IMG/VR virus record: IMGVR_UViG_3300045988_004957
DNA length: 44,150 nt
Strand: one strand, 5' to 3'
Source: a virus
Lineage: Duplodnaviria; Heunggongvirae; Uroviricota; Caudoviricetes
Made by a program: the position numbers and the translations under genes. Within the stretch, counting starts at the first letter, position 1. Every line of letters starts with the position of its first letter. The notes below the pieces were generated by a model that saw only the letters and a list, made by a program, of their open reading frames with translations, was not told the DNA's origin and made no database searches. Shown piece by piece: positions 4,640 to 43,687 of the stretch.

Positions 4640-4643
4640 AGAA

Positions 4644-4670
4644 AAGGCCCCGTTTGGGGCCTTAGTTTTA
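4644..4670. terminator. bidirectional rho-independent terminator
   Basis: AAGGCCCC-GTTT-GGGGCCTT followed by AGTTTTA; lies between convergent plus operon and minus tailspike gene. Confidence 0.7.
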
Positions 4671-14722: not shown

Positions 14723-14751
14723 TTGCACACCCCAATATAATAGTGTACTAT
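14723..14751 (+). promoter_or_regulatory. sigma70-like promoter with embedded dyad (site 1)
   Basis: TTGCAC-17 bp-TACTAT; dyad AATAGT-GT-ACTATT at 14739..14752; 40 bp upstream of ATG 14793. Confidence 0.55.
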
Positions 14752-17191: not shown

Positions 17192-17195
17192 GAAA

Positions 17196-17222
17196 AAGGC
17201 CCCGAAAGGGGCCTTAGTTTTA
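17196..17222. terminator. bidirectional rho-independent terminator
   Basis: AAGGCCCC-GAAA-GGGGCCTT followed by AGTTTTA; near-identical to the terminator at 4644. Confidence 0.7.
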
Positions 17223-21586: not shown

Positions 21587-21607
21587 AAGAGGGACCGAAG
21601 TCCCTCT
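21587..21607 (-). terminator. rho-independent terminator after major capsid gene
   Basis: Minus strand AGAGGGAC-TTCG-GTCCCTCT followed by TTTTCATTT, 17 nt after capsid stop. Confidence 0.6.
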
Positions 21608-21623
21608 CGATTATATCTTAACC

Positions 21624-23979: not shown

Positions 23980-23999
23980 GCCCTGCCTTAAAGCAGGGC
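23980..23999 (-). terminator. GC hairpin with T-rich tail on minus strand
   Basis: GCCCTGC-6 nt-GCAGGGC, followed on minus strand by TTTACTTAT. Confidence 0.45.
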
Positions 24000-24065
24000 G
24001 CTAGTCCTTATCATTTAAACATAGAAACGGCGTAATCTAAGTAAACCTGTTACTTTTTACACAAG

Positions 24066-24208
24066 CAATAGAGTATGGCCCTTCCGAACGCGTCAGCGTA
24101 ACTACACTCAGGACTTACGTCCCGCTCCGTTACCTGCCCGCGCCGCGGTCGCTTGTTCATACTTCACAAGCTCAGGTGGAGCTTATCATATTTTTAGTGA
24201 AAAGTCAA
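24066..24208. repeat. dispersed ~145-bp non-coding repeat, copy A
   Basis: Aligns with 36397..36539 over about 143 bp incl. identical 43-bp block 24143..24185. Confidence 0.9.
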
Positions 24209-24274
24209 CTATTCGAATAGTTTATTCCAACATTTACAATTCGGTGGAATAACTGGAATACGTAAATAAATAGT

Positions 24275-24303
24275 TTGCACACCCCAATATAATAGGGTAC
24301 TAT
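24275..24303 (+). promoter_or_regulatory. sigma70-like promoter with embedded dyad (site 2)
   Basis: TTGCAC-17 bp-TACTAT, near-identical to site 1; dyad at 24291..24304. Confidence 0.55.
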
Positions 24304-24330
24304 TCAGTTAACTTAAACAGGAGGTGAAAA

Positions 24331-24534
24331 ATGTATGCAATTTGCGAAGTAGTTCAAGAGTTCGATGAAGAGTTCGACGGTGACTTGTGCCGTGTTAAAA
24401 AGGTTCTGCAGGTTTTCCCTGACGCAATGTCTGCTTACAGGGCATTAGATATATTTGAACCTGGAAGATACGGGGATTATGACACTGTTCTGAGGGTTGT
24501 CCATGAGCAGGATTTAAACACAAGATTCCGTTGA
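24331..24534 (+). CDS. hypothetical protein (moron-like, 67 aa)
   Basis: Lone plus-strand ORF with SD AGGAGGTGA, own promoter and terminator inside minus-strand structural module. Confidence 0.55.
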   Translation: MYAICEVVQEFDEEFDGDLCRVKKVLQVFPDAMSAYRALDIFEPGRYGDYDTVLRVVHEQDLNTRFR

Positions 24535-24539
24535 AAACT

Positions 24540-24562
24540 AAGGCCCCTTAATGGGGCCTTTT
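24540..24562. terminator. bidirectional rho-independent terminator
   Basis: AGGCCCC-TTAAT-GGGGCCT followed by TTTTAT; between convergent genes. Confidence 0.65.
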
Positions 24563-24563
24563 A

Positions 24564-25025
24564 TCATTCTGGTTTAGCGACCTTCGCCGCTTTACTGACG
24601 GCCTCTACGCCACCGGCATCGGTAACTTTAACGAAGTATTCACCAACTGCATTAACCGTCAGAGACAAGGCCTCTTCCGGGGCGTTTACCACTTCCTTAC
24701 CGTCTTTGTACCAGGTCAGAGCATACGGTGCTTTACCCGCCTTAACTTCGACAGTGATAGTTGCGCTGCCATCTGTAAGTTCAGTGTCTTTCGGTTGCAC
24801 AGAGAAGTACACGTCACCAGCGTCCGCCAGATACGGAATCTCGTAAAGCATGCCAGCAGCGGGTAACGCAATACCGGTTTTATCTGCAAACGGCATATCG
24901 TCCACTGGCGCACCCAGTACACTTTCGTCTTCAATAAATACCACGTTCTCGCCAGAGCCAGACACGCGGGCGTACTGGACTACGCGACGAGACGGTACGT
25001 CAGTTACTTTGAAAAAGCCCATCAT
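24564..25025 (-). CDS. Ig-like domain virion protein
   Basis: APYALTWYKDGKEV ... VGEYFVKV Ig-like pattern; between head morphogenesis gene and spanins. Confidence 0.5.
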   Translation of the reverse strand: MMGFFKVTDVPSRRVVQYARVSGSGENVVFIEDESVLGAPVDDMPFADKTGIALPAAGMLYEIPYLADAGDVYFSVQPKDTELTDGSATITVEVKAGKAPYALTWYKDGKEVVNAPEEALSLTVNAVGEYFVKVTDAGGVEAVSKAAKVAKPE

Positions 25026-26101
25026 TATTCCCCTTTCAGATAATCAGCAACACGTTTATCGAGTTCCGCCATCTGCTTAAGCGTGAGCGGATTCCCGAAA
25101 CCATCTACAGATATTACGCGAAACTCTTCCGGCGATATACCGCTGTTACGGAAAATCTTACCTCGCACCGGGCCGAGCGCCTGGTCCTGAAACCACGCCG
25201 GTTGTTGTTTAAGGAACTCGTAGTAAGTGGTGTCTGCGCTTACCTGAGTGCCACCTTCCGCGCCTTTAGCCGCGCGTTTTGCGCCTTTATCGAGGAAGTC
25301 GAACTCGGAACTGATTACCGGAGCCGTGCACGACCGGCAGTTCGGATGGGCTGGGGGCATCGGCCCCTTACCAATTTCCCACGTCATCCCGTCTCTGACC
25401 CTGCAAATCGTACTGGTGCGGCTGTCAAGCGTTGACACCCACTCGTACTTCTCGATGATGTCGTCGTTCTGGCGGTACGTCTCGTTACGGGCCTCGTTGG
25501 ATACGTGGGACAGCGCGGTGCGGATTACCGTAGTCGCGTTACGTTCTGAGATGTCGGCTAGTCCACCAGCGCCAACAACATTCTTAACAATCTGCCGTGT
25601 GGTTTGACCTTGCACAAAGCCCATCTTAACTCCAGTTACAAGACGTGCTACTTCCGTTTCGCCCCATCCAGACATCAGCTTGGTGAAATCAACGGGCTTG
25701 TCGCTCAATGATAATGGTTGAAACTCGGCAGCGGACCATACCTGCTCAGCGGTAGGCGTAACAAATTCCGCGTCTACGTTGGCGGTCAGTGTCTTTACGT
25801 TCCACTCAGCCTCGTACGCCGCCAGTTCCTTAAGGTCGTCTGTTAGCTTTGTTTGCCAGTCACCCGTAATACCGGTTAGTGCTTCTTCCAGGTCGCGTAA
25901 CAGTTTATTCAGTCGCGCAGTGCTGCGACCGTCGTCACCGAATAACAGCACCTGCCGTTTGATTTCATCCCTTATCTCCTGAATGAACGGCGTGAGGTCT
26001 TTCACCTCACCGGATGCGGTGCGTTGCAGCCATATCTGATGGCTGATTAGGGATGTAAGTAAGCTCATAGATAAACCCTGTGGCGCTAAAGTTAATAGCA
26101 T
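25025..26101 (-). CDS. head morphogenesis protein (minor head)
   Basis: 358 aa ORF immediately downstream of portal, as for Mu F / SPP1 gp7-type proteins. Confidence 0.55.
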   Translation of the reverse strand: MLLTLAPQGLSMSLLTSLISHQIWLQRTASGEVKDLTPFIQEIRDEIKRQVLLFGDDGRSTARLNKLLRDLEEALTGITGDWQTKLTDDLKELAAYEAEWNVKTLTANVDAEFVTPTAEQVWSAAEFQPLSLSDKPVDFTKLMSGWGETEVARLVTGVKMGFVQGQTTRQIVKNVVGAGGLADISERNATTVIRTALSHVSNEARNETYRQNDDIIEKYEWVSTLDSRTSTICRVRDGMTWEIGKGPMPPAHPNCRSCTAPVISSEFDFLDKGAKRAAKGAEGGTQVSADTTYYEFLKQQPAWFQDQALGPVRGKIFRNSGISPEEFRVISVDGFGNPLTLKQMAELDKRVADYLKGE

Positions 26102-26110
26102 ACTATAAGA

Positions 26111-26126
26111 AAGCCCCTTTCGGGGC
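26111..26126 (-). terminator. hairpin / attenuator after portal gene
   Basis: AGCCCC-GAAA-GGGGCT on minus strand followed by TTCTTAT. Confidence 0.4.
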
Positions 26127-26137
26127 TATAGGTGAAC

Positions 26138-27619
26138 TTACTGCTGAGTGGTGTCCTGTTGCTGCGCCGACTGCGGAATCTCTCCCGCTACCTGAGCAAC
26201 AGAACCCAACGGCAGAGGTGCGTCTTCAATAGCGTTCTGAATGTCCTCATCTGTCCAGTCAGTCACACCTGCCTTGCGCAACGCAGCATAGTAAGCGGTG
26301 GCGGGTAGCAGGCCAGCGTTAATATCCGCCATCCACTGAGCGCGGTCCTGAGCTGTCATAGGTTGCAGGAAGAATTCCATATTCAGCTTGAACTCAATCT
26401 CAGTATCTTCACTAAGCCCAAGCATACCCGCAACCCAGCGCAACGCATCGGTATACGCCATGCTTACATTACGTGCTATTGTTGCCATGACTGACGTGTC
26501 GGCGCCGCGTTGCAGGCGGGCCGATTCCGCGGTGATTTGCTGCGTCGGGGTGATAAGCTGCGCGCCAATCTGGATGGCCTGATTCTCTTTATCCAGCATA
26601 TTCTGTTTGGCGAGGTTAGTTTCCGCCGCCTGAACCAGAAACGCATTTCCGCCGGAGCCGATGTTGTGGCCTGAACGCGACCCCATGCGTATGCCGTGTG
26701 GGTTGGCTTCTTTCCACTGCTCCATGCTCATGTTCTCGCCGGGGGCAATGAACAGTGTCGGTTGACCTACTATAAAGCTGGCCTCTTCCACATCGGCCGA
26801 ATTTCTGAAGTGTCCTATATTTAGCTCAGCTAACGGCAGTAAAGGCGCATCGTCTATAGTGGCGTCGTTGTTGCTTGCGCCAATGAACGTGAACGGGATT
26901 TTACCGCGCAACTGTTCGCCGAGTTCCGGGAAGATTTCGATTACTTCATCCTGTGCGCCACCTTCGGCATCGAAGCGGTAGATGCGCTGGCGGTAGCGAC
27001 CGTCAATCAGGTCAAGGACGCGGTATTGCTCGCCGAATTTTGTTTCAAACTCAGCGCCTGGTTCCGAGTATTCCCATGCCTCACGCAATACAACCATCGT
27101 CACGCGGTTCACTGAACCGATGCGGGTGAGTCTCCAGTTGATAATGTTCTCCGCGGTATAGAATGCGATTACCGGGTTTAATAATCCCGCGTTCTGCTCT
27201 GCCGCCGTTGCTGCGGCTGTTTCCGGGGCGTCCACCAGCAACCCGCCACGGCCTATCGAGTTAATCTCCATCAGCGTATCCTGCGCGTGCTGCCACAGCC
27301 CGACACCTGAACCGTCAGCGTTGTGCAACAGGTACTCAAGTTCAGGCGGGATAATCTGCTCAGGGTCTTTGCGCATCACTGACCCCGTCATCCCCGCCAG
27401 CGTGCGTTTGGTGAAATTGTAGCAGATAGCGCCGTTCTCGTATTCTTCCTGTCGCTGTGCTGCGTAGGTCTGGTCAGGCTCGTTCTTCCCGACGTTGCGC
27501 AGATAGCGGATAAGGTCGCCTTCAAGAGCGTGGCGTACCTTCTGCCATTTATCGAAGTGATGCAGCCATTCCCGGTGTTTTGTCTTAACACCCTGATTCT
27601 GACCGTTCATAGTTAACAT
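26138..27619 (-). CDS. portal protein
   Basis: 493 aa acidic ORF between terminase large subunit and head morphogenesis gene. Confidence 0.65.
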   Translation of the reverse strand: MLTMNGQNQGVKTKHREWLHHFDKWQKVRHALEGDLIRYLRNVGKNEPDQTYAAQRQEEYENGAICYNFTKRTLAGMTGSVMRKDPEQIIPPELEYLLHNADGSGVGLWQHAQDTLMEINSIGRGGLLVDAPETAAATAAEQNAGLLNPVIAFYTAENIINWRLTRIGSVNRVTMVVLREAWEYSEPGAEFETKFGEQYRVLDLIDGRYRQRIYRFDAEGGAQDEVIEIFPELGEQLRGKIPFTFIGASNNDATIDDAPLLPLAELNIGHFRNSADVEEASFIVGQPTLFIAPGENMSMEQWKEANPHGIRMGSRSGHNIGSGGNAFLVQAAETNLAKQNMLDKENQAIQIGAQLITPTQQITAESARLQRGADTSVMATIARNVSMAYTDALRWVAGMLGLSEDTEIEFKLNMEFFLQPMTAQDRAQWMADINAGLLPATAYYAALRKAGVTDWTDEDIQNAIEDAPLPLGSVAQVAGEIPQSAQQQDTTQQ

Positions 27620-27631
27620 TGAATAATCCTC

Positions 27632-28903
27632 TTAAAGTGCGAAAGTCACCGGGACGTTAATAACTGGTTTGCGAATCGGCATTTCATACGCGATAGGGTA
27701 TGTGGTTCCATCATTCTGGTGGTCCACACCGCCTGATTTATCCGGTTCGCCGTTCTTGTCGTAAGCCTGTTGCTCCAGGCATCGTGCGGTAACAGGGCAA
27801 GCCTGTTCATTAATCATGACCATACCAGATTCAAGCGCCTTATTCATCGCCGCTACGCGGTCTTTAACCGGTGGGTTTGTCGATTTAGCGCGCACTTCGA
27901 AGCCGGCCTGCTGTAACTGGGCAATATCAGATGTGCTGGCGTTGTTACTTTTACGGTTTTTACCGCTTGCGTCGGGGTACATAACGATATAGTGGCCCTT
28001 ACTTTTCCAGCGCTCTGTTACGGCTCTCACCACATCGGGCGTATCGAACATATCCACCAACTCGGCGACTGCATGCCAGACTTTGCCACGTTGCACGTAA
28101 ACTGTACTAGCCATGTGGCCTACGTTAAAGTCCTGCCCGATATACAGAGTCTCGCCTGGTTTTATCGTTTCGCGGCTGCTGTTTTTCCTGCGGTCATAGG
28201 CGTAATAGACAGTCCCCGCCGTCAGGTTGACGAACTCGCCGTTGATGTAGGCGTCAATCAACTGACCTGGGTATGTGTCGCGTAACGACTGCACATAATC
28301 TTCTGGCAGGAACGGGTTAGACAGGGTGGACGCCTGAATCATCTCGTAGCCTGGATTCTTTTTGACTACCCAGCGGTCATGTACGAAACGGAATCCTTCC
28401 GGGGTAGTGAACACGGAAACGGTATTAGCAGGTTTCGGTGTAATAGGTTTATATGTCCGCGGCAACTGGCGGTTACGGGCGATGACTTTGTTCCACGCGT
28501 GCTCGGCGTGCTCCATGTTAAGGGTGTCCAACTCGTCGATTTTCGCACGAAACGATTCGTAGCCAACGATTCGTGCTGGATTATCAAGTGTACGCAGAAC
28601 AAAATCCCCAAATTGTCCGGAAGACGTATAGATTATGTTGTCAGACTTGTTGTATTTGTACCGGATACCCCAGTCGGTGAGCTTTTCTTCCATACGCGGT
28701 GCAAGGATGAGGCGCACCAGGTCATAAGTCGGCTCATACATGGCGATGATAGAATCGCTACCACCTTCCATGCTGTCGAGTAGTGCAGAGTTGCACATAA
28801 CTTCGGATTTACCCGTACCGAAGCCAGCTACGAATGCCGGAAACTTGCAATGCATACCGAGAAACGCGCCTTGCGGCTCCGTTGCCGTGATATTAACGTT
28901 CAC
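27632..28903 (-). CDS. terminase large subunit
   Basis: Walker A GFGTGKS near N-terminus, C-terminal nuclease-like half; 423 aa. Confidence 0.85.
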   Translation of the reverse strand: MNVNITATEPQGAFLGMHCKFPAFVAGFGTGKSEVMCNSALLDSMEGGSDSIIAMYEPTYDLVRLILAPRMEEKLTDWGIRYKYNKSDNIIYTSSGQFGDFVLRTLDNPARIVGYESFRAKIDELDTLNMEHAEHAWNKVIARNRQLPRTYKPITPKPANTVSVFTTPEGFRFVHDRWVVKKNPGYEMIQASTLSNPFLPEDYVQSLRDTYPGQLIDAYINGEFVNLTAGTVYYAYDRRKNSSRETIKPGETLYIGQDFNVGHMASTVYVQRGKVWHAVAELVDMFDTPDVVRAVTERWKSKGHYIVMYPDASGKNRKSNNASTSDIAQLQQAGFEVRAKSTNPPVKDRVAAMNKALESGMVMINEQACPVTARCLEQQAYDKNGEPDKSGGVDHQNDGTTYPIAYEMPIRKPVINVPVTFAL

Positions 28904-29402
28904 CGGACACCACCTTAATTGTTACTTCGCTGATTGGCTCGTCGCGTACTTCTTCGGCGACAACTGTTTTATTCAGGCCCAGTTTCGCGGCAGCAAACGT
29001 AGCAGAGATGCCCGCGGCCCCCGTTTCAGTGAAGTATGCCTCTTCCAGCGCCTGTGCTGTCTCCCAGGCTTCTGCAAATGCGGGAATCTCACGCAGCCAA
29101 AGCTTAATAATCGGGATAGTGACTCCGATGTGTAAGGCGAAGCGGGCCAGTGACGGTGGTTTATCCTGAATCAGCGGGCGTTCGTCACCCTTAGACGTAG
29201 GCACAAGCTCCCACGACGTGCGGTCGAAGAACTCGATTAGTGCATCGCAATAGCCCGGGTCCCACAACGCGGCGGAATTACGGGATGATTGATAAAGGCT
29301 CTGTTTACCGCGCGGTCGTTTACGGCGACGGTTTGCGCTAACAGCTTCTTTATGCGCAGCTTGCACCACCTCTGGTGATGGTTGCTTAAGTGTAAGTTTC
29401 AT
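28893..29402 (-). CDS. putative terminase small subunit
   Basis: ORF overlapping terminase large start; start taken at ATG 29402 with SD AGGGGG; basic N-terminal region. Confidence 0.45.
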   Translation of the reverse strand: MKLTLKQPSPEVVQAAHKEAVSANRRRKRPRGKQSLYQSSRNSAALWDPGYCDALIEFFDRTSWELVPTSKGDERPLIQDKPPSLARFALHIGVTIPIIKLWLREIPAFAEAWETAQALEEAYFTETGAAGISATFAAAKLGLNKTVVAEEVRDEPISEVTIKVVSGER

Positions 29403-29500
29403 ATAACCCCCTGACATATGCGTCTGACCATCAGAGCGCACCAGACGCGCCCTACGCGTCTAAAGGGATTATATAAGGGGATTGGGCGGGATGTACAGAA

Positions 29501-29520
29501 AAGCCCTCCGTAGAGGGCTT
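29501..29520 (-). terminator. hairpin terminator / attenuator
   Basis: AAGCCCTC-TACG-GAGGGCTT on minus strand followed by TTCTGT. Confidence 0.5.
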
Positions 29521-29578
29521 GTATCAGTTATATAGGCCGTGGCGTGGCGCTCGTTTACCGTCGCCGCCGTAATGGTCG

Positions 29579-29851
29579 TTAGCTACCGCTATAACCCAGG
29601 CATTCGGAAAGACTAAAAGTTGCATTAAATTCCTCAAGGTCTATTTTACGAATACATGGTGAAAGGCAATCAGCGAAAACCAACTCACCAGAATCAATAA
29701 CGACGAATCGCCAGCCTTTGAATATGTTCTCGGAAATACCCTCCGCAACTTCGCGTACATTAGGCATGTGTTCTGGGAAATCGTGGAAGTTTCTGGACAA
29801 AAATTCAAGGGCCTCACACCGGTTTATGTGGTAGTTATCATATCCAATCAT
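29579..29851 (-). CDS. hypothetical protein
   Basis: 90 aa ORF, last of a tightly coupled minus-strand small-gene cluster. Confidence 0.45.
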   Translation of the reverse strand: MIGYDNYHINRCEALEFLSRNFHDFPEHMPNVREVAEGISENIFKGWRFVVIDSGELVFADCLSPCIRKIDLEEFNATFSLSECLGYSGS

Positions 29852-30108
29852 TCCCCGCTCTCCTCTTTAGCGATGCGTTGCTCTGTTTTAGTGATACCGC
29901 GGCGCGTGAATAACACCGGGCTTGTCTTAACGTGCGTCATAAGGCGGTTATTATAAATTACATGGCGCTCGCATTTCACGTCTTTGCTGTACTTCGCAAT
30001 CGTCATTTCGTTGAGGCCTGTTTGTCGGCACGTCTCCGCCATCGTGCCAAATTCTTTAATAAGGTTAGGAATGCTGGTAATCATCCTAAGAAATTCCTCG
30101 TCGTCCAC
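29848..30108 (-). CDS. hypothetical protein
   Basis: 86 aa ORF, ATGA coupling to downstream gene. Confidence 0.45.
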   Translation of the reverse strand: MDDEEFLRMITSIPNLIKEFGTMAETCRQTGLNEMTIAKYSKDVKCERHVIYNNRLMTHVKTSPVLFTRRGITKTEQRIAKEESGE

Positions 30109-30202
30109 ATCGCATTAGTATCTGCCCCACAGAAACCCAACCAATAGTCCGATGAAGTAACTAAGACCGACCAGGCCAATAACAACCTCAAGACTCATAC
30201 TC

Positions 30203-30403
30203 TTACCCCACTATCTCATCACCTAGCCACGCCGTTTCTCGTATATCGTCGACCACACAAGCGGCGTGCTCGCGGCTAATTGCAAAAATGTAGAAGCTGA
30301 ACTTCTTCCCGTCGGCGTCGATGTGGTTAACCGAGTATGGTTTCCACAGGACGCCATCAATAACTACCGGTTCAGGCGCTTTCATCTTCTGGTCCGACAA
30401 CAT
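30203..30403 (-). CDS. hypothetical protein
   Basis: 66 aa ORF in co-directional cluster. Confidence 0.4.
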   Translation of the reverse strand: MLSDQKMKAPEPVVIDGVLWKPYSVNHIDADGKKFSFYIFAISREHAACVVDDIRETAWLGDEIVG

Positions 30404-30662
30404 TGTCGTACAGCGGGATTATCACATCAGCCCCATCCTTTGAAGCTGCGGTTGCCGTGTTGTAATAAGCCAGCGAAGAACTGTCTTCACCGACGAACAA
30501 CCCCGCGTACACGTTCGGTTCTTGCGTCTTAATAGCCAGTAACTCCTTAAACGCCTCCAGTTGAAACTCACCGTTAATTGACAGTTGCCCGCCTAACGTC
30601 TGTTTCTCTGACTCAAGGACCAGAATACGACGCTCAAGTGACGCGATTGTGATTTTAGGCAT
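30372..30662 (-). CDS. hypothetical protein
   Basis: 96 aa ORF in co-directional cluster. Confidence 0.45.
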   Translation of the reverse strand: MPKITIASLERRILVLESEKQTLGGQLSINGEFQLEAFKELLAIKTQEPNVYAGLFVGEDSSSLAYYNTATAASKDGADVIIPLYDNVVGPEDESA

Positions 30663-30886
30663 TATTCGGCTCCCTCATAAAAATCGCCATTTCGGTAATC
30701 CCCATCGAAATCGTCAGAAATAGCGCGCCCCTTGTTCATGTTGAAGCGGCTAATCAGCTCACGGCGGCGTTCCATAAGATTATCCACCTGCCGTAAGTGG
30801 TGTTCGATGTGGGTGTCAATCCACGCTATTTCAGATTCACCGGTCGCGGATTCGACGCATGCTTTTTCATATTCGTTATTAGTCAT
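30662..30886 (-). CDS. hypothetical protein
   Basis: 74 aa ORF, ATGA coupling with upstream ORF. Confidence 0.45.
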   Translation of the reverse strand: MTNNEYEKACVESATGESEIAWIDTHIEHHLRQVDNLMERRRELISRFNMNKGRAISDDFDGDYRNGDFYEGAE

Positions 30887-31041
30887 ACTTTACGCTCTCC
30901 CCACATGCGATTGAGATACTTGTTCTTGTCCGGCCCGGGGAAACTGTTACGTTTCATCAGTTCCTCGCGTGTCGGGAACGGGGTGTGGCTGACTTTACGG
31001 CCTACTCGTATTGACGGGTTTATTTGAACTTGTTCACTCAT
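30883..31041 (-). CDS. hypothetical protein (52 aa)
   Basis: ATG 31041 with SD GGGAGG, ATGA coupling on both sides; below ORF-track cutoff. Confidence 0.4.
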   Translation of the reverse strand: MSEQVQINPSIRVGRKVSHTPFPTREELMKRNSFPGPDKNKYLNRMWGERKV

Positions 31042-33028: not shown

Positions 33029-33329
33029 TACCACCTCCGCGGCGTGCGATATATTCTCCGGCGACAATGCCAGAGAGACGGGAATAAATTGGCATCCAGA
33101 GAATAGCAATGATGAATCCAAGGCCCGCTATTTCGCGTTCACCTGCGATACCGAACCATTGAGCGGCGAGAGGCGCACCGAATACGGCGCACGCAAAGCC
33201 AGTGGCGAGAAAACAGAGAGCATCGACAGGGCCGGTAATAGTGGCTTTGTGTTGCCGTAAGCCTATTACCCCACCAGCTAATGCGGCAGCGAGAAGCCAC
33301 CCCGTCACTGTTTCAGTAAATTTATCCAA
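33021..33329 (-). CDS. putative holin
   Basis: 102 aa with TM helices and charged C-terminus, first gene of lysis cassette; start codon is TTG. Confidence 0.5.
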   Translation of the reverse strand: MDKFTETVTGWLLAAALAGGVIGLRQHKATITGPVDALCFLATGFACAVFGAPLAAQWFGIAGEREIAGLGFIIAILWMPIYSRLSGIVAGEYIARRGGGNE

Positions 33330-33375
33330 GATGAAGCCACCCCGTCACTGTTTCAGTAAATTTATCCAAGATGAA
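33293..33375. repeat. 40-bp tandem direct repeat (2 copies) across the holin start
   Basis: 33293..33332 identical to 33333..33372, next 3 nt also repeat. Confidence 0.9.
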
Positions 33376-35457: not shown

Positions 35458-35508
35458 ACCAACCCCCACAACGCGTGCGCCACATAAACGGCGCTGACAA
35501 TTAAAATG

Positions 35509-35745
35509 TTATCCACGGCAACCTCCCTCAGAGTCGTCGGCACGAGCATCATGATTAGATGCCGTTGTGTATACCTTCGCTTCTGCCTTAGTTACCGGGA
35601 TTGTGTATCTTCCTGTCTTAATCCACCAGCCATCCTCACAGGAATCCAGTACATTGAAAACATCACCCACATTTACGCCTATTTTCTCGAGAGTATCACC
35701 ATCTTCTTCGTAGATAACGGTGTTATCTGTAATTATGATTTGCAT
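35509..35745 (-). CDS. hypothetical protein
   Basis: ATG 35745 overlapping upstream stop; acidic 78 aa. Confidence 0.45.
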   Translation of the reverse strand: MQIIITDNTVIYEEDGDTLEKIGVNVGDVFNVLDSCEDGWWIKTGRYTIPVTKAEAKVYTTASNHDARADDSEGGCRG

Positions 35746-35936
35746 CACTTCACCCCTTTGAATTTAAAATTGTTGCCGATGAGTGTTAAATTATCTCTGA
35801 AAGCGTAACCATGTTTCTTTCGTACAAGACCCCATACGTCTACAGCGGTACTATATTCATCCTCATTCTGGGTAACTATTACGTACTGTCCGCCGCGTTT
35901 TGTTTTAACCAACTGACCCTTCTTAAACATAACCAT
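35745..35936 (-). CDS. hypothetical protein
   Basis: Small basic ORF, SD AGAGGAG. Confidence 0.45.
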   Translation of the reverse strand: MVMFKKGQLVKTKRGGQYVIVTQNEDEYSTAVDVWGLVRKKHGYAFRDNLTLIGNNFKFKGVK

Positions 35937-35948
35937 CACTCCTCTGTC

Positions 35949-36167
35949 TTATTTAAAGTAGATAGCAAATTTCTTGTAACCCGCTGGCTCGTTACGAAGT
36001 CCTTTACCGTTAGCGAAACGTTGTACGTTAACAAAATCATTTTCATCCATTCCGTCGGTGTCGAACGTAAAGAAGTTGCGCTTGTTCCCGATAATTACGC
36101 GCTCTGAGATATCGATGCCGTAAACTTCTTTGATTGCGGAAACTACGCTTGCGGTCGCTTTGTTCAT
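35949..36167 (-). CDS. hypothetical protein
   Basis: 72 aa, first gene after promoter site 4; SD AAGGAA. Confidence 0.45.
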   Translation of the reverse strand: MNKATASVVSAIKEVYGIDISERVIIGNKRNFFTFDTDGMDENDFVNVQRFANGKGLRNEPAGYKKFAIYFK

Positions 36168-36201
36168 TTCTAAATTCCTTATGTCTCGTTCCGATAAGTG
36201 A

Positions 36202-36230
36202 ATAGTATCCTATTATGTTGGGGTGTGCAA
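36202..36230 (-). promoter_or_regulatory. sigma70-like promoter with embedded dyad (site 4)
   Basis: Minus strand TTGCACACCCCAACATAATAGGATACTAT; dyad at 36201..36214. Confidence 0.55.
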
Positions 36231-36396
36231 GATAATAGTTACGTTGCCGTTGTGATTCTTTTGTTTCTTTAAAGAGTACGCAACGCAGCGGGTGGGCTAA
36301 AGCCCACCCCAGCGGAGTGAAGTACTCTCTACCTTGCTTACGGCAACTATAGAAACTTTTAATTATTAGTGACTTGGGTTATTTAGACGGGATTTA

Positions 36397-36539
36397 CAAT
36401 AGATTATGGCCCTTCCGAATGCAGGCAGCGACACTACACTCAGTGCTGACGCACCGCTCCGTTTCCTGCCGCACCGCGGTCGCTTGTTCATACTTCACAA
36501 GCTCAGGTGGAGCTTAGCACATTTCTTAGTAAAAGTCAA
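36397..36539. repeat. dispersed ~145-bp non-coding repeat, copy B
   Basis: Paralogue of 24066..24208; identical 43-bp block at 36474..36516. Confidence 0.9.
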
Positions 36540-36646
36540 TACCATTAGCATCTTTTGTATATTAGTAACTTTGTGTGGTGTTTTGGTTGCTTTTACATTC
36601 ACGCTATCCTATACTCGTTTTCACCAAACAAACAGGAGATATAAAA

Positions 36647-36829
36647 ATGCAGCATTACATGACACAGAATGAAGTGGCTGAACGTATCGGGGTGACACGT
36701 CAAACAATTAATAACTGGTTGCGCAGCGGTAAATTCCCTGATTGCTGTATTAAGGTTATGGGTCGCCGTTTACCAGGAACATTTGACCGTAATAAAGTTG
36801 AAGCATGGATTAAGGAGAACGTGAAATGA
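36647..36829 (+). CDS. AlpA/excisionase-like HTH DNA-binding protein
   Basis: 60 aa from ATG 36647 (SD CAGGAG); GKFP ... W pattern of AlpA-type HTH proteins. Confidence 0.55.
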   Translation: MQHYMTQNEVAERIGVTRQTINNWLRSGKFPDCCIKVMGRRLPGTFDRNKVEAWIKENVK

Positions 36830-37038
36830 TTGGGCGTATGGGTTGTTACTTTGAAAACTGTAAAGTTAAATACTGGTTTAAGTTTGCGTCGGAAATTACT
36901 GACAGCGGATTCTATGCGGAAATATGTAAGCCTAATCATTTGTTGGAACCGACACGCATTATTAAGATGCCAATCGAGGCTTTAAGTAAGTGTCGTTTCT
37001 ACGCTTCGGAGCGTGCGTGGATTGCGGGCGTTAAGTAA
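36826..37038 (+). CDS. hypothetical protein
   Basis: 70 aa, ATGA coupling to upstream gene. Confidence 0.45.
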   Translation: MIGRMGCYFENCKVKYWFKFASEITDSGFYAEICKPNHLLEPTRIIKMPIEALSKCRFYASERAWIAGVK

Positions 37039-37106
37039 AAGAAACCCCAACGCCAGAACGTCGGGGCTAAAGTACAAATCATCAAAGTAAGCATAAGGAT
37101 TATACA

Positions 37107-37235
37107 ATGACAAAGTTAATAGTTCCACAGCTACGCCGCCAGAAACACGGCGCTGACTTCTTCGCACCGGTAAAGATGAACCGCGCAATGCGCCGTATGC
37201 AGGAAGCCTTAGAACGTGCGGAGAAAAAGAAATGA
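37107..37235 (+). CDS. hypothetical protein (42 aa)
   Basis: ATG 37107 with SD AAGGA; basic; stop overlaps next start. Confidence 0.35.
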   Translation: MTKLIVPQLRRQKHGADFFAPVKMNRAMRRMQEALERAEKKK

Positions 37236-39484
37236 ATATTGTTTTTGCAACGCTGCGCAACACATTCGATAAAAACCCTGTAGCGCGTGAGATGCCGCTC
37301 GAGCAGTTTGTGGAGTATGTCTGCGATACATCGAAGCGTTTATCCGTGGATCCGTCGTGGTCTAAGGAAGAGTACGACGCTGCCAAGATTAAGCAGAAAG
37401 CTATTGCGCCTGTTGGGGGTCGCCGTAAAAACGCTATCCTGGAAGACAGTGTGGTTAAGTTCGATTTTGACCATCTCAACCGTACTCAGTACCGCGACCT
37501 TACCCGCAAATTCAAGAACGCACCGTTCTTCAATATTCTGCATACAACGGCATCGCATCAGCATGTGTGTAAAAACGGTGATTACGCCTTCCGCGTTCTG
37601 GTTCCGGCTCGCACGCCGTTTAACTCTAACGACGCGTGGATGGTCCAACGGGCTATTTGTGCAGAGTTAGAAATAGATGAAGCCTTGCGTGACCACTGCA
37701 CGGAAGACGGCAACCGCCTTATCTATCTGCCACATAGAGAGTCAAAGATAACGGTTACAGAAGGGCGTGTTATCCGTGCCGAGCGGTACATCAAGAAAGC
37801 CGAAGAGATGGGGTTGAGTAAACGTGAAGTTAAGACACTTGCCGCCGATGAGTATGGGCTTAACGCTGATATAGCGCATTTCTGCGAAGCCGAGCTTGGC
37901 CTTGACGCTTTATCTTCCGGGCGCGGGTACGAAGTCCCATGCCCTAACGAACATCTGCATACAGGCAAAGGCTCCACAAGCATCATGCTTGATGGTAAAG
38001 AAGTGCGCTTTGTGTGCCAGCATACAAACAACGGCGCTTGCACCGAGCTTAACCGCCGACAGCATTTGGCCCTGCGTATGTGCGGCCTGCCAGACGAGCT
38101 TAACGTAGACAAGCAACCTATCAGTATTAACAGCATTCGTGCGGCTCTGCCTGATTTACCGGATGAAGAGATTGAAGAACTGCACCGCACAGAGAACGAG
38201 GAGCCTGTAACTTGCACGCTGGAAGACCTTGAAGAAGAGGACGAGTTACCAGAACCGGTAAAGGCTGATTTCGTCGTTGAGGGGTACATGCCGTCGGATT
38301 GTATCTGGGATATTGTCGGGGAATCCGGCACGTACAAATCATTCTATACGCTGGGGATGATGTACCTGAGCGCCGCCGGGTACCGGTTTGCGGGGGCTGA
38401 CACCCAACGTTGCCACCATTTCTATATTGACGGCGAGGGTGGTGCAGCTACACGAACACGTATTGATGCACTCGCGGCTAAATATGGCGAGGAAGGTAAA
38501 GATTATGTACATGTCATCGATATGGGCGAAATACTCGCTACGCATGGTGATAAAAAAATTCCAGCTCTAATCCACAGGATGCGCGAAACCGCAGGGGATG
38601 AACCTATTGGCATGGTTGCCTTCGACACCCTTAACCAGACGCTGGCCCTGACGATTGATAAGTTCGACGAGAACAGTTCATCAACAGCAATCGGCATGGG
38701 TAAAGTTATCGCCATCCTGAAAGAAGTACGCGATGCAACTAAAGCCGCAGTAGGCGTTGTCCACCATACGCCGAAGGGTGGAAAGAAAGCACGCGGCAGT
38801 GGGGCGCTGTATGCGGGTGTTGACGTGGAACTGACAATCGAACGTGCAACCGACCGTCAGATAAACGTATATCACTCGAAATTCAAGCACGGTCCGCAAC
38901 AGAAGACGGTTGGCATGGTACTGGAGTCTGTACAGTTCCGTGAAGCACCGCCGCCGAAAGAGTACCGCGCGGTTGAGTTCCTCGGTAGCACAGAGGAATA
39001 CGGCACAATAGTAAACCTCGACCTGCCTGAGCCGCACAAGGCGCTTGTATTGATGCCGTGGGGCTTCGAGCCATTCAAGACCGACGAGGAGAAAGAGAGG
39101 GAAGAAGGGTTAACTAACGAAGGTAAACAAAATGTACGTAAAACCATAGAGAACGCCGTCAACAGTTCCGAGGCCACGATACTCGCGGCGTTTGAACTGG
39201 CGGAGGGGACCTACAACGGCAACGAGGGCATCACGGTATCCGCAGCGAATAAGCTCGCGCAGTCTGACCCCAACGCAAAGGCGTTTAACTCCAAAGAAGC
39301 CATAGAACGCGGGAAGATTAAGAAAATGGTTGAGGCTGGGTATCTTGTTCCGGGTACTGACGAAAACAATCAGATAATCCCAGGCCGTTACAGACTGAAC
39401 ACCATGATAACAGATAACAAGATTCCGAAGACAATATACGAACCGAATGAAATGCTGACAGTGACCGAGGAGGATTTGGAATGA
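37232..39484 (+). CDS. DNA primase / helicase
   Basis: 750 aa: Cys/His cluster CPNEHLH...C, Walker A-like GESGTYKS and Walker B VAFD in a RecA-like C-terminal half. Confidence 0.65.
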   Translation: MNIVFATLRNTFDKNPVAREMPLEQFVEYVCDTSKRLSVDPSWSKEEYDAAKIKQKAIAPVGGRRKNAILEDSVVKFDFDHLNRTQYRDLTRKFKNAPFFNILHTTASHQHVCKNGDYAFRVLVPARTPFNSNDAWMVQRAICAELEIDEALRDHCTEDGNRLIYLPHRESKITVTEGRVIRAERYIKKAEEMGLSKREVKTLAADEYGLNADIAHFCEAELGLDALSSGRGYEVPCPNEHLHTGKGSTSIMLDGKEVRFVCQHTNNGACTELNRRQHLALRMCGLPDELNVDKQPISINSIRAALPDLPDEEIEELHRTENEEPVTCTLEDLEEEDELPEPVKADFVVEGYMPSDCIWDIVGESGTYKSFYTLGMMYLSAAGYRFAGADTQRCHHFYIDGEGGAATRTRIDALAAKYGEEGKDYVHVIDMGEILATHGDKKIPALIHRMRETAGDEPIGMVAFDTLNQTLALTIDKFDENSSSTAIGMGKVIAILKEVRDATKAAVGVVHHTPKGGKKARGSGALYAGVDVELTIERATDRQINVYHSKFKHGPQQKTVGMVLESVQFREAPPPKEYRAVEFLGSTEEYGTIVNLDLPEPHKALVLMPWGFEPFKTDEEKEREEGLTNEGKQNVRKTIENAVNSSEATILAAFELAEGTYNGNEGITVSAANKLAQSDPNAKAFNSKEAIERGKIKKMVEAGYLVPGTDENNQIIPGRYRLNTMITDNKIPKTIYEPNEMLTVTEEDLE

Positions 39485-39800: not shown

Positions 39801-39820
39801 AAGGGGCTTTAAGCCCCTTC
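39801..39820. terminator. bidirectional hairpin terminator
   Basis: AAGGGGCTT-T-AAGCCCCTT between convergent genes; overlaps 3' end of XRE gene. Confidence 0.6.
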
Positions 39821-40024
39821 ACCTAACGCCAGCCACTTGGCGTCTACTTCCAGAACTTCCGCCAGTTTGAACAGCGTTGCCGGGCGGACGTCCTGAGTTA
39901 CTCCAAGTGCCAGTTGGTTAATCGCGCCCTGGGAAACGCCGGTCAGGGCCGCCAAACGGCGCTGGGAGATGCCGAGTTCTTTACGGCGTTGTTCTACACG
40001 GATACCTAGTTCAGATGGTTGCAT
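39809..40024 (-). CDS. XRE-family HTH transcriptional regulator
   Basis: HTH signature LGISQRRLAALTGVSQGAINQLALG; SD AAGGAG; divergent from replication operon. Confidence 0.7.
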   Translation of the reverse strand: MQPSELGIRVEQRRKELGISQRRLAALTGVSQGAINQLALGVTQDVRPATLFKLAEVLEVDAKWLALGEGA

Positions 40025-40044: not shown

Positions 40045-40117
40045 TTGATATGTGAATAGTACCATATTAATTATTTTAGAAAAGCCCATTGACATGTGAA
40101 TAGTTCGCTATTATAGT
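40045..40117 (+). promoter_or_regulatory. two tandem promoters with dyad operators (sites 5 and 6)
   Basis: TTGATA-17 bp-TAATTA (weak -10) and TTGACA-17 bp-TATAGT; dyads at 40055..40068 and 40099..40112. Confidence 0.55.
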
Positions 40118-43627: not shown

Positions 43628-43647
43628 TATCTGAATCAATTTTAACT

Positions 43648-43670
43648 AAGGCCCTTCATTGGGCCTTTTT
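43648..43670 (+). terminator. rho-independent terminator / attenuator
   Basis: AAGGCCC-TTCATT-GGGCCTT followed by TTTTTAC. Confidence 0.6.
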
Positions 43671-43687
43671 ACTAGGGGTCAAAAATA

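What the first reader, a model, noticed from the sequence alone, without database searches (positions are those of the whole stretch)
36168..36646. 480-bp non-coding hub beside the primase-helicase operon (candidate origin / regulatory region)
The gap between divergent genes 35949..36167 (minus) and 36647..36829 (plus) contains, in order, promoter site 4 with its dyad, a nested inverted repeat (outer arms AGAGTAC 36273..36279 and GTACTCT 36322..36328 enclosing GGGTGGGC-taaa-GCCCACCC at 36290..36309), repeat copy B, and a weak TTGCTT-17 bp-TATACT promoter-like element before the AlpA-like gene. Such a density of dyads next to a primase-helicase gene is what a replication origin or a transcriptional control hub would look like.
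Basis: inference. Interest (0 to 1): 0.45.

Follow-up and report, generated by a model that had tools for sequence, protein, structure and literature searches.

The report
Phage promoter hub with leader RNA
The 480-bp gap in this E. coli phage (Kagunavirus) genome is a three-promoter control region; its central repeat encodes a conserved folded RNA, absent from the RNA family database, that also sits ahead of the capsid genes and probably controls their transcription rather than marking a replication origin.

Summary
The window is a Kagunavirus (Guernseyvirinae) genome. The gap holds three promoters. One is a leftward promoter carrying the dyad, one of 11 AATAG-N4-CTATT sites against 0.9 expected by chance. 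One is a weak rightward promoter for the HTH_17 gene. The third lies inside "repeat copy B". Copy B and copy A (24 kb) are two copies of one unit read on the minus strand. The unit has a TTGACT-17-TGnTAAGCT promoter, then a ~100-115-nt RNA with a 5' hairpin and a long irregular stem-loop, then a stable hairpin. In 42 distinct versions 97% of the paired positions form base pairs, and 15 of 27 pairs show compensatory changes. G·U pairs fix the strand. Salmonella Jerseyviruses carry a divergent version at the copy-A position. Copy A is the only promoter-like element ahead of the Rz-scaffold-capsid operon, and it ends in a terminator 10 nt before the Rz ribosome-binding site. Rfam has no match. 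My best reading is a cis-acting late-operon leader, possibly a put-like antiterminator. That mechanism is inferred, not shown. An origin is neither supported nor excluded: the GC-skew minimum lies here but follows gene orientation, and there are no iterons or DnaA boxes.

The parts
36202..36230 (-). Leftward promoter P_L1: TTGCAC (36230-36225), 17 nt, TACTAT (36207-36202). The dyad AATAG-N4-CTATT (36201-36214) overlaps the -10. It drives the 72-aa gene 35949..36167 and the long leftward operon.
   Evidence: Sequence. Promoter family repeated at 14723, 24275, 35103 and 36195. Dyad found 11 times against 0.9 expected. Nearly identical in Bas70 and in every B-type locus. The same motif is reported as a PHIRE 'phage promoter' in Kagunavirus genome papers (PMC9825357).
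36273..36328 (-). It is terminator-like but lacks a clean U-tract.
   Evidence: Arms confirmed. Fold -32.4 kcal/mol, z -5.1. Not flagged by the terminator scan. Relatives carry non-homologous stable hairpins at this position: GGTGCC-TTCG-GGCACC in B3 types, and GGGCAGGC-TTAA-GCCTGCCC followed by TTTAG in Bas70.
36397..36510 (-). Leader RNA core, copy B. It has a 5' hairpin P1 (GCUUGU/ACAAGC), a 2-nt linker, and a long irregular stem-loop made of a basal helix (CCG.GGUGC / GCAUUCGG), a middle helix and an apical hairpin (GUGC-GUCA-GCAC).
   Evidence: Covariance-model hit at 129.5 bits, E 1.6e-32. RNAalifold structure and pair counts. Single-sequence minimum-energy fold has the same architecture. 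97.1% of cells pair on this strand against 86.9% on the other.
36511..36539 (-). Promoter P_B of the leader unit: TTGACT (36539-36534), 17 nt, TG-n-TAAGCT (-10 at 36516-36511). The predicted start is near 36504.
   Evidence: In 54 distinct Kagunavirus-type copies the -35 is TTGACT in 53, the -10 is TAAGCT in 54 and the TG is present in 54. Spacing is always 17 nt, but there are 18 different spacer sequences. Jerseyvirus versions have TAGACT-17-TGnTACGCT.
36587..36615 (+). Weak rightward promoter for the HTH_17 gene: TTGCTT-17-TATACT. It lies back to back with P_B. The ribosome-binding site AGGAGA is at 36634-36639 and the ATG at 36647.
   Evidence: Sequence. One substitution relative to Bas70 over about 60 nt. 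Below the threshold of the consensus scan.
36647..36829 (+).
   Evidence: Pfam HTH_17 at E 1.6e-8. No PF05930 match at E <= 0.01. No solved AlpA chain matches at E <= 1.
24066..24179 (-). Leader RNA core, copy A. This is the copy at the position occupied in every Guernseyvirinae genome examined.
   Evidence: Covariance-model hit at 143.2 bits. Alignment with copy B shows compensatory differences, GGAC/GTCC against GTGC/GCAC.
24180..24222 (-). Promoter P_A: -10 TAAGCT (24185-24180) and -35 TTGACT (24208-24203). A perfect 16-bp palindrome AACTATTCGAATAGTT (24207-24222) abuts and overlaps the -35.
   Evidence: Sequence. Conserved in 31 A-type loci.
23980..23999 (-). Intrinsic terminator after leader A: GCCCTGC-TTTAAGG-CAGGGC followed by TTTACTTATC. 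It lies 10 nt before the Rz (i-spanin) ribosome-binding site.
   Evidence: Flagged by the terminator scan. Fold -15.7 kcal/mol, z -3.7. The stem covaries T-A to C-G among loci. The Jerseyvirus equivalent is GCCCGGC-TTAC-GCCGGGC.

Best explanation
The gap is a divergent transcription-control region, not a demonstrable origin.

Layout.
- On the left is the dyad-bearing promoter P_L1, which drives the long leftward operon of small genes, holin/endolysin, terminase and portal.
- On the right is a weak promoter for the HTH_17 / primase-helicase operon.
- Between them sits 'repeat copy B', the second copy of a self-contained unit read on the minus strand.

The unit.
- It starts with an extended -10 sigma-70 promoter.
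- From about +1 it encodes a ~100-115-nt RNA made of a 5' hairpin and a long irregular stem-loop.
- After a variable spacer of about 55-90 nt comes a stable hairpin.
- Copy A of the unit is the only promoter-like element in front of the Rz-scaffold-major-capsid-tail operon. It ends in an intrinsic terminator 10 nt before the first ribosome-binding site.

What is shown: the sequence features, their conservation, covariation in the RNA helices, and the sense strand.

What is inferred:
1. The unit is transcribed by host RNA polymerase.
2. The RNA works in cis as the 5' leader of late operons.
3. Most likely mechanism, about 0.35 on its own: the nascent RNA makes the polymerase that transcribes it resistant to the hairpin behind it and to the internal terminators after the capsid gene (21608-21587) and the portal gene (26127-26112). 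This would be put-like processive antitermination without a dedicated phage protein.
For: Promoter.
- Hexamers, the TG and the 17-nt spacing are invariant across 54 distinct copies, while there are 18 different spacer sequences.
- Jerseyvirus versions change the hexamers but keep the spacing and the TG.

RNA structure.
- In 25 versions 96.9% of paired cells form pairs, against 28-42% when the partners are slid. There are 28 double-change cells against 7.3 in shuffles, 0 of 500 shuffles reaching that.
- In 42 distinct versions including Jerseyviruses, 97.1% pair, 15 of 27 pairs change on both sides, and there are 85 double-change cells against 21 +/- 3.9.
- Five divergent types folded singly give the same architecture.
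- 116 G·U cells make the other strand pair only 86.9%.

Leader role.
- Copy A follows a bidirectional terminator and is followed directly by the Rz ribosome-binding site.
- In SETP7 and AG11 nothing else lies between that upstream terminator and Rz.

Mechanism independent of terminator identity.
- Four non-homologous stable hairpins follow the leader in different lineages (types A, B/B2, B3 and Jersey), with z from -3.2 to -5.2. A fifth follows the unrelated unit that occupies the same slot in Bas70, z -3.9.
- I saw no complementarity between the leader and the copy-A terminator arms (by eye).

Other points.
- Internal terminators exist in both downstream operons.
- None of the ten small early-region proteins scanned matched a Q- or AlpA-type antiterminator family, and the published Bas70 annotation lists none.
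- The parallels with put are two similar copies, each just downstream of a promoter, each with two stem-loops (PMC9378689).
Against: - There are no transcript data. The only Kagunavirus RNA-seq paper found reports gene-level timing only (PMC12645636).
- The promoter's -10 (TAAGCT) matches the consensus at only 3 of 6 positions and is missed by the consensus scan.
- The hairpins after copy B and after the Jerseyvirus copies have poor U-tracts, so they may not terminate at all.
- The model of this RNA finds nothing in the HK022 immunity region that holds putL and putR (best E 3.5). The RNA is also longer than put, about 100-115 nt against about 70 nt.
- Only about half of the sampled Kagunavirus contigs carry a copy in this gap, so copy B is dispensable.
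- The very long hairpin after copy B could instead be an antitermination-resistant end, which would fit a stand-alone small RNA (compare PMC10325885, title and abstract only).
- Sequence-only alignment of the most divergent types recovers only the basal helix. The inner helices rest on within-type alignments and on a model-fitted alignment.
Confidence: 0.5

Rival explanations
1. The unit is a stand-alone small RNA gene: promoter, structured RNA of about 200 nt, terminator. The product would act in trans on host or phage targets. Its position ahead of the late operons would be incidental or give only weak read-through.
For: - It has its own promoter and a downstream stable hairpin in every lineage.
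- The structured core is supported by covariation.
- The slot in the gap is exchangeable: Bas70 carries an unrelated promoter-hairpin-terminator unit there.
- The copy-B hairpin is unusually long and stable, -32.4 kcal/mol.
Against: - Copy A would leave the Rz-scaffold-capsid operon with no promoter of its own.
- The hairpins lack the long U-tails typical of Hfq-dependent small RNAs.
- I did not search for a target complementary to the RNA.
Confidence: 0.2
2. The RNA is a cis-acting leader with a different job. It could be a 5'-terminal stem-loop that stabilises the late mRNA. It could also be the binding site of a phage or host protein, acting like N at nut or as a translational or timing regulator.
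For: - Hairpin P1 starts within about 1-3 nt of the predicted 5' end, the geometry of known 5' stabilisers (established knowledge of RNase E 5'-end dependence).
- Unpaired stretches are conserved within the Kagunavirus-type copies, for example GAGUGUAG. UUCGGAAGG is also kept in the Jerseyvirus versions. This suggests specific recognition.
- A 16-bp palindrome abuts the -35 of copy A.
Against: - A simple stabiliser would not need a 27-bp architecture conserved across genera.
- No candidate RNA-binding protein was identified.
- A boxA-like match near the hairpin is at chance level: 42 matches against 39 expected.
Confidence: 0.2
3. The gap is, or contains, the replication origin. One version is a transcription-primed origin, in which the P_B transcript forms an R-loop next to the AT-rich stretch 36329-36396, acting with the adjacent primase-helicase.
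For: - The cumulative GC-skew minimum is at 36633.
- Segments of 66-68% AT flank the GC-rich elements.
- The gap lies next to the primase-helicase operon.
- Promoter-plus-unwinding-element origins exist in phage T4 (my own knowledge).
Against: - The skew sign follows the coding strand in all seven gene blocks, so the minimum is expected at any divergent junction.
- No iterons. No DnaA-box enrichment, and none in the gap.
- The same unit sits 12 kb away among structural genes, and about half of the sampled relatives lack it here.
- Compensatory base changes and G·U pairs point to a folded RNA, not a persistent RNA-DNA hybrid.
Confidence: 0.08
4. The repeat encodes small proteins, as annotated in some GenBank records (for example the 41-aa MNKRPR... 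ORF at 36366..36491).
For: SHAK7858 and Schulenburg annotate small ORFs in the gap. Copies A and B both begin with MNKRPR.
Against: - The annotations are on opposite strands in different records.
- One-base indels between the copies shift the frame, so only the ends of the two peptides match.
- The ATG is missing in the B2 and Jerseyvirus versions.
- The substitutions are compensatory at the RNA level.
Confidence: 0.02

Closest known systems
HK022 put RNAs (putL, putR): cis-acting antiterminator RNAs of a lambdoid phage
   Same: There are two similar copies per genome, each downstream of a sigma-70 promoter at the head of a long operon. The RNA starts at or near the 5' end. It has two stem-loops with bulges. 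Terminators lie downstream. No dedicated antiterminator protein is recognisable (PMC9378689).
   Different: - There is no detectable homology: this RNA's model scores E > 3 on the HK022 immunity region.
- It is about 100-115 nt against about 70 nt, with a short first hairpin and a much longer second one.
- The host phage is virulent and the operons are late or structural rather than early.
- Activity is untested.
Lambda PR'-qut-6S RNA-tR' late module, with Q proteins and P. aeruginosa AlpA at PalpB
   Same: A promoter is followed within about 200 nt by a terminator placed just ahead of lysis and structural genes. The module is exchangeable between related phages (PMC7969949, PMC9371919).
   Different: - None of the ten small early-region proteins scanned matched a Q- or AlpA-type family.
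- The adjacent 60-aa HTH_17 protein is far too small: Pae AlpA has eight helices and DNA-contact residues at 128-142 (PMC9371919).
- The promoter spacer, where the Q and AlpA binding elements lie, is the variable part here.
- No conserved -10-like pause element is present.
- Here it is the transcript's fold that is conserved.
EAR RNA of the Bacillus eps operon, and the RNA of the conAn system of Gram-positive conjugative elements: other RNA-dependent processive antitermination systems
   Same: A structured RNA of about 100-120 nt inside or ahead of a long operon with internal terminators (my own knowledge for EAR; abstract of PMC8191782 for conAn).
   Different: The taxa are unrelated and there is no Rfam match. 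The conAn system also needs a protein partner. Function here is untested.
PHIRE 'phage promoter' motif tgAATAGTa-ccTATTat-T of Kagunavirus genomes
   Same: P_L1 in the gap is one of the seven perfect copies of this motif (PMC9825357).
   Different: The papers assign the motif to a phage RNA polymerase. No RNA polymerase is annotated in the complete Bas70 genome. The motif overlaps sigma-70-like hexamers and looks like an operator. The structured RNA unit is not mentioned in any of the papers I read.
Transcription-primed phage origins, such as T4 ori(uvsY) and ori(34)
   Same: A promoter is followed by a transcribed segment and an AT-rich stretch, near replication genes (my own knowledge).
   Different: Covariation points to a folded RNA rather than an R-loop. 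A copy lies among structural genes. There are no origin data.

Membership tests
HK022 put-type antiterminator RNA | Encoded just downstream of a sigma-70 promoter at the head of an operon | tested here: met
   The core begins directly after a conserved TTGACT-17-TGnTAAGCT promoter in both copies and in all relatives. The transcription start is inferred, not mapped.
HK022 put-type antiterminator RNA | About 70 nt with two stem-loops | tested here: inconclusive
   Two stem-loops separated by 0-2 nt are predicted in five types and supported by covariation. The RNA is about 100-115 nt and the proportions differ.
HK022 put-type antiterminator RNA | Sequence and structure homology to putL/putR | tested here: not met
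   Model R1 run with filters off on HK022 24000-31000 gives a best E of 3.5. No put model was available to run the test in the other direction.
HK022 put-type antiterminator RNA | Read-through of downstream terminators in cis without a phage protein, dependent on the beta' zinc-binding domain | not testable with these tools
   Needs in vitro transcription or reporter assays with rpoC mutants.
Q / Pae-AlpA type late antitermination module | Promoter followed by a terminator ahead of the late genes | tested here: met
   Copy A: terminator 23999-23980, 10 nt before the Rz ribosome-binding site. Copy B: a hairpin without a clean U-tract.
Q / Pae-AlpA type late antitermination module | A Q-like or AlpA-like protein with an RNA-exit-channel ring domain | tested here: not met
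   Ten small early-region proteins scanned against Pfam gave only HTH_17 and HTH_3. The Bas70 annotation lists no antiterminator. Not every window protein was scanned.
Q / Pae-AlpA type late antitermination module | A conserved protein-binding element between -35 and -10, and a -10-like pause element in the early transcribed region | tested here: not met
   The spacer is the variable part, with 18 variants. AAGTAT in the P1 loop is replaced in the B2, L123 and Jerseyvirus versions.
Iteron or DnaA-type replication origin | Three or more direct repeats (iterons), or DnaA boxes | tested here: not met
   Only short two-copy repeats are found. DnaA-box matches number 12 against 8.3 expected, with none in the gap.
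Iteron or DnaA-type replication origin | Skew switch and an AT-rich unwinding region | tested here: inconclusive
   The skew minimum is at 36633 and there are 66-68% AT segments. The skew follows the coding strand in 7 of 7 gene blocks.
Iteron or DnaA-type replication origin | Supports autonomous replication; peak of marker frequency | not testable with these tools
   Experimental.
Any Rfam 15 family | Score at or above the family's gathering threshold | tested here: not met
   No matches in the whole window at gathering thresholds. The best E in 36150-36700 is 3.3, and all hits are eukaryotic or unrelated families far below threshold.
AlpA family (Pfam PF05930), for gene 36647-36829 | Match to the Phage_AlpA profile | tested here: not met
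   The top hit is HTH_17 at E 1.6e-8, above its cut-off. PF05930 is absent at E <= 0.01.
Guernseyvirinae dyad promoter family (PHIRE motif) | AATAG-N4-CTATT embedded in sigma-70-like hexamers | tested here: met
   36201-36214 is a perfect site inside TTGCAC-17-TACTAT.

The most novel reading that the evidence does not exclude
The conserved leader is a new class of phage RNA that, by itself, converts host RNA polymerase into a terminator-resistant form. It would join the very small group of known RNA-based antitermination systems (put, EAR, the RNA of conAn). It would act as the late-gene switch of Guernseyvirinae, a large group of virulent E. coli and Salmonella phages of which more than 460 are sequenced and many are used in therapy.
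Probability: 0.3. Interest if true: 0.75.

Novelty: new variant of a known kind. Interest (0 to 1): 0.55.

Why it matters
Guernseyvirinae (Kagunavirus, Jerseyvirus) are among the most often isolated phages for therapy and biocontrol. How they time late gene expression is unknown, and they encode no recognisable late regulator of the Q type.

A covariation-supported RNA at the head of the capsid operon gives a concrete, testable candidate for that switch. If it acts like put, it adds a new and easily assayed RNA to a very small set of RNAs that reprogram bacterial RNA polymerase.

Practically, the result corrects spurious small-ORF annotations in many GenBank records. It also marks a compact cassette (promoter, leader, terminator) that matters for engineering these phages.

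Tried and rejected
1. AlpA as the antiterminator. I suspected the adjacent 'AlpA-like' gene might be a Q-like factor, as in P. aeruginosa. Rejected: Pae AlpA is an eight-helix protein of about 150 aa (PMC9371919). The window protein is a 60-aa HTH_17 with no PF05930 match and no match to a solved AlpA chain.

2. BoxA / Nus-dependent element near the hairpin. The match at 36266-36277 has three mismatches, and such matches are at chance frequency, 42 against 39 expected.

3. Thermodynamic signal. Single-sequence z-scores for the leader are mostly weak, -0.3 to -1.9, with one type at -4.1. The structure evidence rests on covariation, not on energy.

4. Plus-strand RNA. It pairs less well, 86.9% against 97.1%.

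5. Wider distribution.
The covariance model confirmed only two Kagunavirus contigs, so nothing can be said about occurrence outside these phages.
- Two viral scans were too narrow or too loose.
- The weak model hit in L175 (E 0.065) lies inside a coding region of an unrelated GC-rich phage contig. The hit in L198 (E 0.064) is equally weak and was not examined.

6. Sequence-only alignment of Kagunavirus and Jerseyvirus versions misaligns the interior and recovers only the basal helix.

7. A brute-force hairpin script timed out. I replaced it with folds of representative hairpins.

8. Literature. Searches on Guernseyvirinae, Kagunavirus, Jerseyvirus and MB78 found no description of this RNA or of an origin.
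Full report
**Identity of the window.** The region 35900-36900 matches 183 phage records, all Escherichia, Salmonella, Raoultella, Klebsiella or Shigella phages of the Kagunavirus/Jerseyvirus group (Guernseyvirinae). The best match is 99.4% to Escherichia phage SHAK7858. The complete annotation of a relative, Bas70, gives the gene order. Leftward from the gap (window orientation) run many small genes, then holins, endolysin, terminase, portal, head morphogenesis and a Hoc-like gene. Rightward run an HTH gene, the helicase-primase and the other replication genes.

**The observation.** The gap lies between ORFs 35949..36167 (-) and 36647..36829 (+).
- The dyad-bearing promoter is TTGCAC (36230-36225), 17 nt, TACTAT (36207-36202) on the minus strand, with AATAG-N4-CTATT at 36201-36214.
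- The nested inverted repeat is at 36273-36328.
- Repeat copy B is at 36397-36540 and copy A at 24066-24209.
- The weak TTGCTT-17-TATACT element is at 36587-36615.

The features are more than chance in specific ways. The dyad occurs 11 times in the window against 0.9 expected. The nested repeat folds at -32.4 kcal/mol with z -5.1. Copy B is an 82-92% repeat of copy A. A generic consensus scan of 35500-37500 finds no excess of promoters or terminators, so the argument has to rest on comparative data.

**Repeat copy B is a transcription unit on the minus strand.** Aligning copies A and B showed compensatory differences in a hairpin (GGAC-TTAC-GTCC against GTGC-TGAC-GCAC) and single-base indels that shift the frame of the small ORF. 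I collected related loci from IMG/VR and GenBank.

Read on the minus strand, every copy begins with TTGACT, 17 nt, TG-n-TAAGCT. Among 54 distinct Kagunavirus-type copies the -35 is TTGACT in 53, the -10 and the TG are invariant, and the spacing is always 17 nt. There are nevertheless 18 different spacer sequences. That is the pattern expected of a working sigma-70 promoter. Jerseyviruses SETP7 and AG11 have TAGACT-17-TGnTACGCT at the same place.

**The transcribed segment is a structured RNA.**
- RNAalifold on 25 distinct versions predicts a 5' hairpin P1 and a long irregular stem-loop.
- Counted on that alignment, 96.9% of cells pair, against 28-42% when the partners are slid. There are 28 double-change cells against 7.3 in shuffles, 0 of 500 reaching that. 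Three pair types occur at each of two long-range positions: C-G/U-A/A-U, and U-A/A-U/G-C.
- A covariance model built from this alignment found 75 hits in 77 loci. Twelve are Jerseyvirus versions at E 1e-8 to 1e-10, whose P1, middle helix and apical hairpin have different sequences.
- On the resulting alignment of 42 distinct sequences, 97.1% of cells pair and 15 of 27 pairs change on both sides. There are 85 double-change cells against 21 +/- 3.9, 0 of 500. This alignment is fitted to the model and so leans towards the structure.
- As independent checks, five divergent types folded singly give the same architecture. A sequence-only alignment recovers the basal helix with U-A/C-G/A-U covariation but misaligns the interior.
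- 116 G·U cells make the opposite strand pair only 86.9%. The sense strand is therefore the window's minus strand.
- Rfam 15 has no match.

**Context of the two copies.**

Copy A:
- A bidirectional terminator (24536-24563) lies upstream. In this phage a small divergent gene lies between that terminator and copy A.
- A 16-bp palindrome AACTATTCGAATAGTT abuts the -35.
- About 70 nt after the core comes an intrinsic terminator (23999-23980, flagged). Its stem covaries among loci.
- The terminator lies 10 nt before the ribosome-binding site of Rz. The scaffold, major capsid and tail genes follow.
- In SETP7 and AG11 nothing but this unit lies between the upstream terminator and Rz.
- I found no other promoter-like element for this operon. 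Transcription of the capsid genes must therefore pass through the leader and its terminator.

Copy B:
- It is followed by the nested hairpin of the finding, then by P_L1 and the leftward operon.
- In other lineages the hairpin is replaced by non-homologous stable hairpins. B3 variants carry a (CTCA)n tract followed by GGTGCC-UUCG-GGCACC.
- Bas70 has an unrelated unit in the same slot, with its own TTGAAA-18-TATAAT promoter, a 13-bp hairpin and a canonical terminator. The two outer promoter modules of the gap stay almost identical.
- About half of the roughly 40 Kagunavirus contigs sampled carry a B-type copy (my tally).
- One contig has a B-like core in the A position, which points to exchange between the copies.

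**Mechanism.** The layout is a promoter, a folded RNA starting at about +1, a variable spacer and then a hairpin or terminator, all ahead of long operons. Those operons contain further strong terminators, after the capsid gene at 21608-21587 and after the portal gene at 26127-26112. This is the layout of processive antitermination modules.
- The downstream hairpins are non-homologous, and I saw no complementarity to the leader by eye. A riboswitch-like alternative-pairing mechanism is therefore unlikely, and a mechanism that modifies the polymerase itself is favoured.
- The ten small early-region proteins I scanned gave no Q- or AlpA-type match, and the published Bas70 annotation lists none.
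- The closest functional analogue is therefore HK022 put: two similar RNAs with two stem-loops, just downstream of promoters, acting without protein (PMC9378689).
- Membership in the put family is not supported. The model finds nothing in HK022, and the size and shape differ.
- I put about 0.35 on put-like antitermination. I put about 0.2 on another cis role (5' stabiliser or protein-binding leader) and about 0.2 on a trans-acting small RNA.
- None of this is shown. There are no transcript-end data for these phages, and the one Kagunavirus RNA-seq paper found is gene-level only.

**The origin hypothesis.**
- All seven gene blocks have a skew sign equal to their coding strand. Any divergent junction between the longest minus block and a plus block would give this minimum.
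- There are no iterons and no DnaA boxes in the gap.
- The AT-rich stretches, 66-68% AT, are ordinary promoter and spacer DNA.
- The 'dyads' are accounted for by an operator-like site, an RNA hairpin and RNA helices.
- An origin here cannot be excluded, and a transcription-primed origin is conceivable. I give it about 0.08.

**The other elements of the hub.**
- The dyad AATAG-N4-CTATT is the motif that Kagunavirus genome papers report as seven PHIRE 'phage promoters' (PMC9825357, PMC7203180). No RNA polymerase is annotated in the complete Bas70 genome, and the motif overlaps sigma-70-like hexamers.
- Two adjacent copies at 40045 and 40089 face the XRE-type HTH_3 gene 39809-40024. I infer that the dyad is that regulator's operator.

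**Verdict.** 'Control hub' is supported. 'Origin' remains open but has no positive evidence. The part of real interest is the repeat: a conserved, covariation-supported leader RNA unit that is not in Rfam and was not described in any paper I found, at the head of the late operons. It is detected by blastn in 181 records. Divergent versions are present in the Jerseyvirus genomes examined. About 460 records in total carry a closely related capsid gene.

Noticed in passing
window 33293-33372: A perfect tandem duplication of a 40-bp unit (GAAGCCACCCCGTCACTGTTTCAGTAAATTTATCCAAGAT, two copies, 100% identical) in the holin/small-gene region.
   Followed up: no
window 2329, 14739, 24291, 35118, 36201, 40099, 42923 (perfect); 24200, 26094, 31636, 40055 (one mismatch): The dyad AATAG-N4-CTATT forms a set of 11 sites against 0.9 expected by chance. 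It is the PHIRE 'phage promoter' motif of the literature. Two adjacent sites at 40045/40089 face the XRE-type repressor-like gene 39809-40024(-), which suggests the dyad is that protein's operator.
   Followed up: partly
window 21587-21608 (-) and 26112-26127 (-): Strong intrinsic terminators lie inside the late operons. One is directly after the major capsid gene and one is between the portal and head-morphogenesis genes.
   Followed up: no
window 4642-4669, 17193-17221, 24534-24563, 43644-43671: A family of near-identical bidirectional terminators (AAAAGGCCCC-loop-GGGGCCTT) sits at the ends of the transcription blocks.
   Followed up: no
L042 (Bas70) about 36260-36600, reverse strand: A relative without copy B has an unrelated small unit in its place. 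It consists of TTGAAA-18-TATAAT, a 13-bp hairpin, and a canonical terminator GGGCAGGC-TTAA-GCCTGCCC followed by TTTAG. The slot therefore holds exchangeable small transcription units.
   Followed up: partly
L002, L129, L131, L132, L133, L135 (B3-type hubs): A (CTCA)n microsatellite with n = 2 to 6 lies between the leader core and a GGTGCC-TTCG-GGCACC hairpin. It is C-rich and G-poor, like a Rho-loading tract.
   Followed up: no
L008 (contig 3300045988_039442), A position: This A-context copy carries a B-like core sequence, which implies recombination or gene conversion between the two copies within a genome.
   Followed up: no
window 24207-24222: A perfect 16-bp palindrome AACTATTCGAATAGTT abuts and overlaps the -35 of the copy-A promoter, centred near -42. 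Copy B lacks it. SETP7 has a different palindrome, TGAATACTTTATTCA, upstream. It is a possible activator or repressor site for late timing.
   Followed up: no
window 36350-36375 and 36546-36571: Imperfect 26-nt direct repeats (77% identical) flank copy B. They could be a remnant of how the copy was inserted, or chance in AT-rich DNA.
   Followed up: no
OR594183.1 (SHAK7858) record: The closest GenBank record, a Kagunavirus-like siphovirus genome, is filed under Autographiviridae / Kayfunavirus and named vB_EcoM. This looks like a taxonomy or naming error in the record.
   Followed up: no
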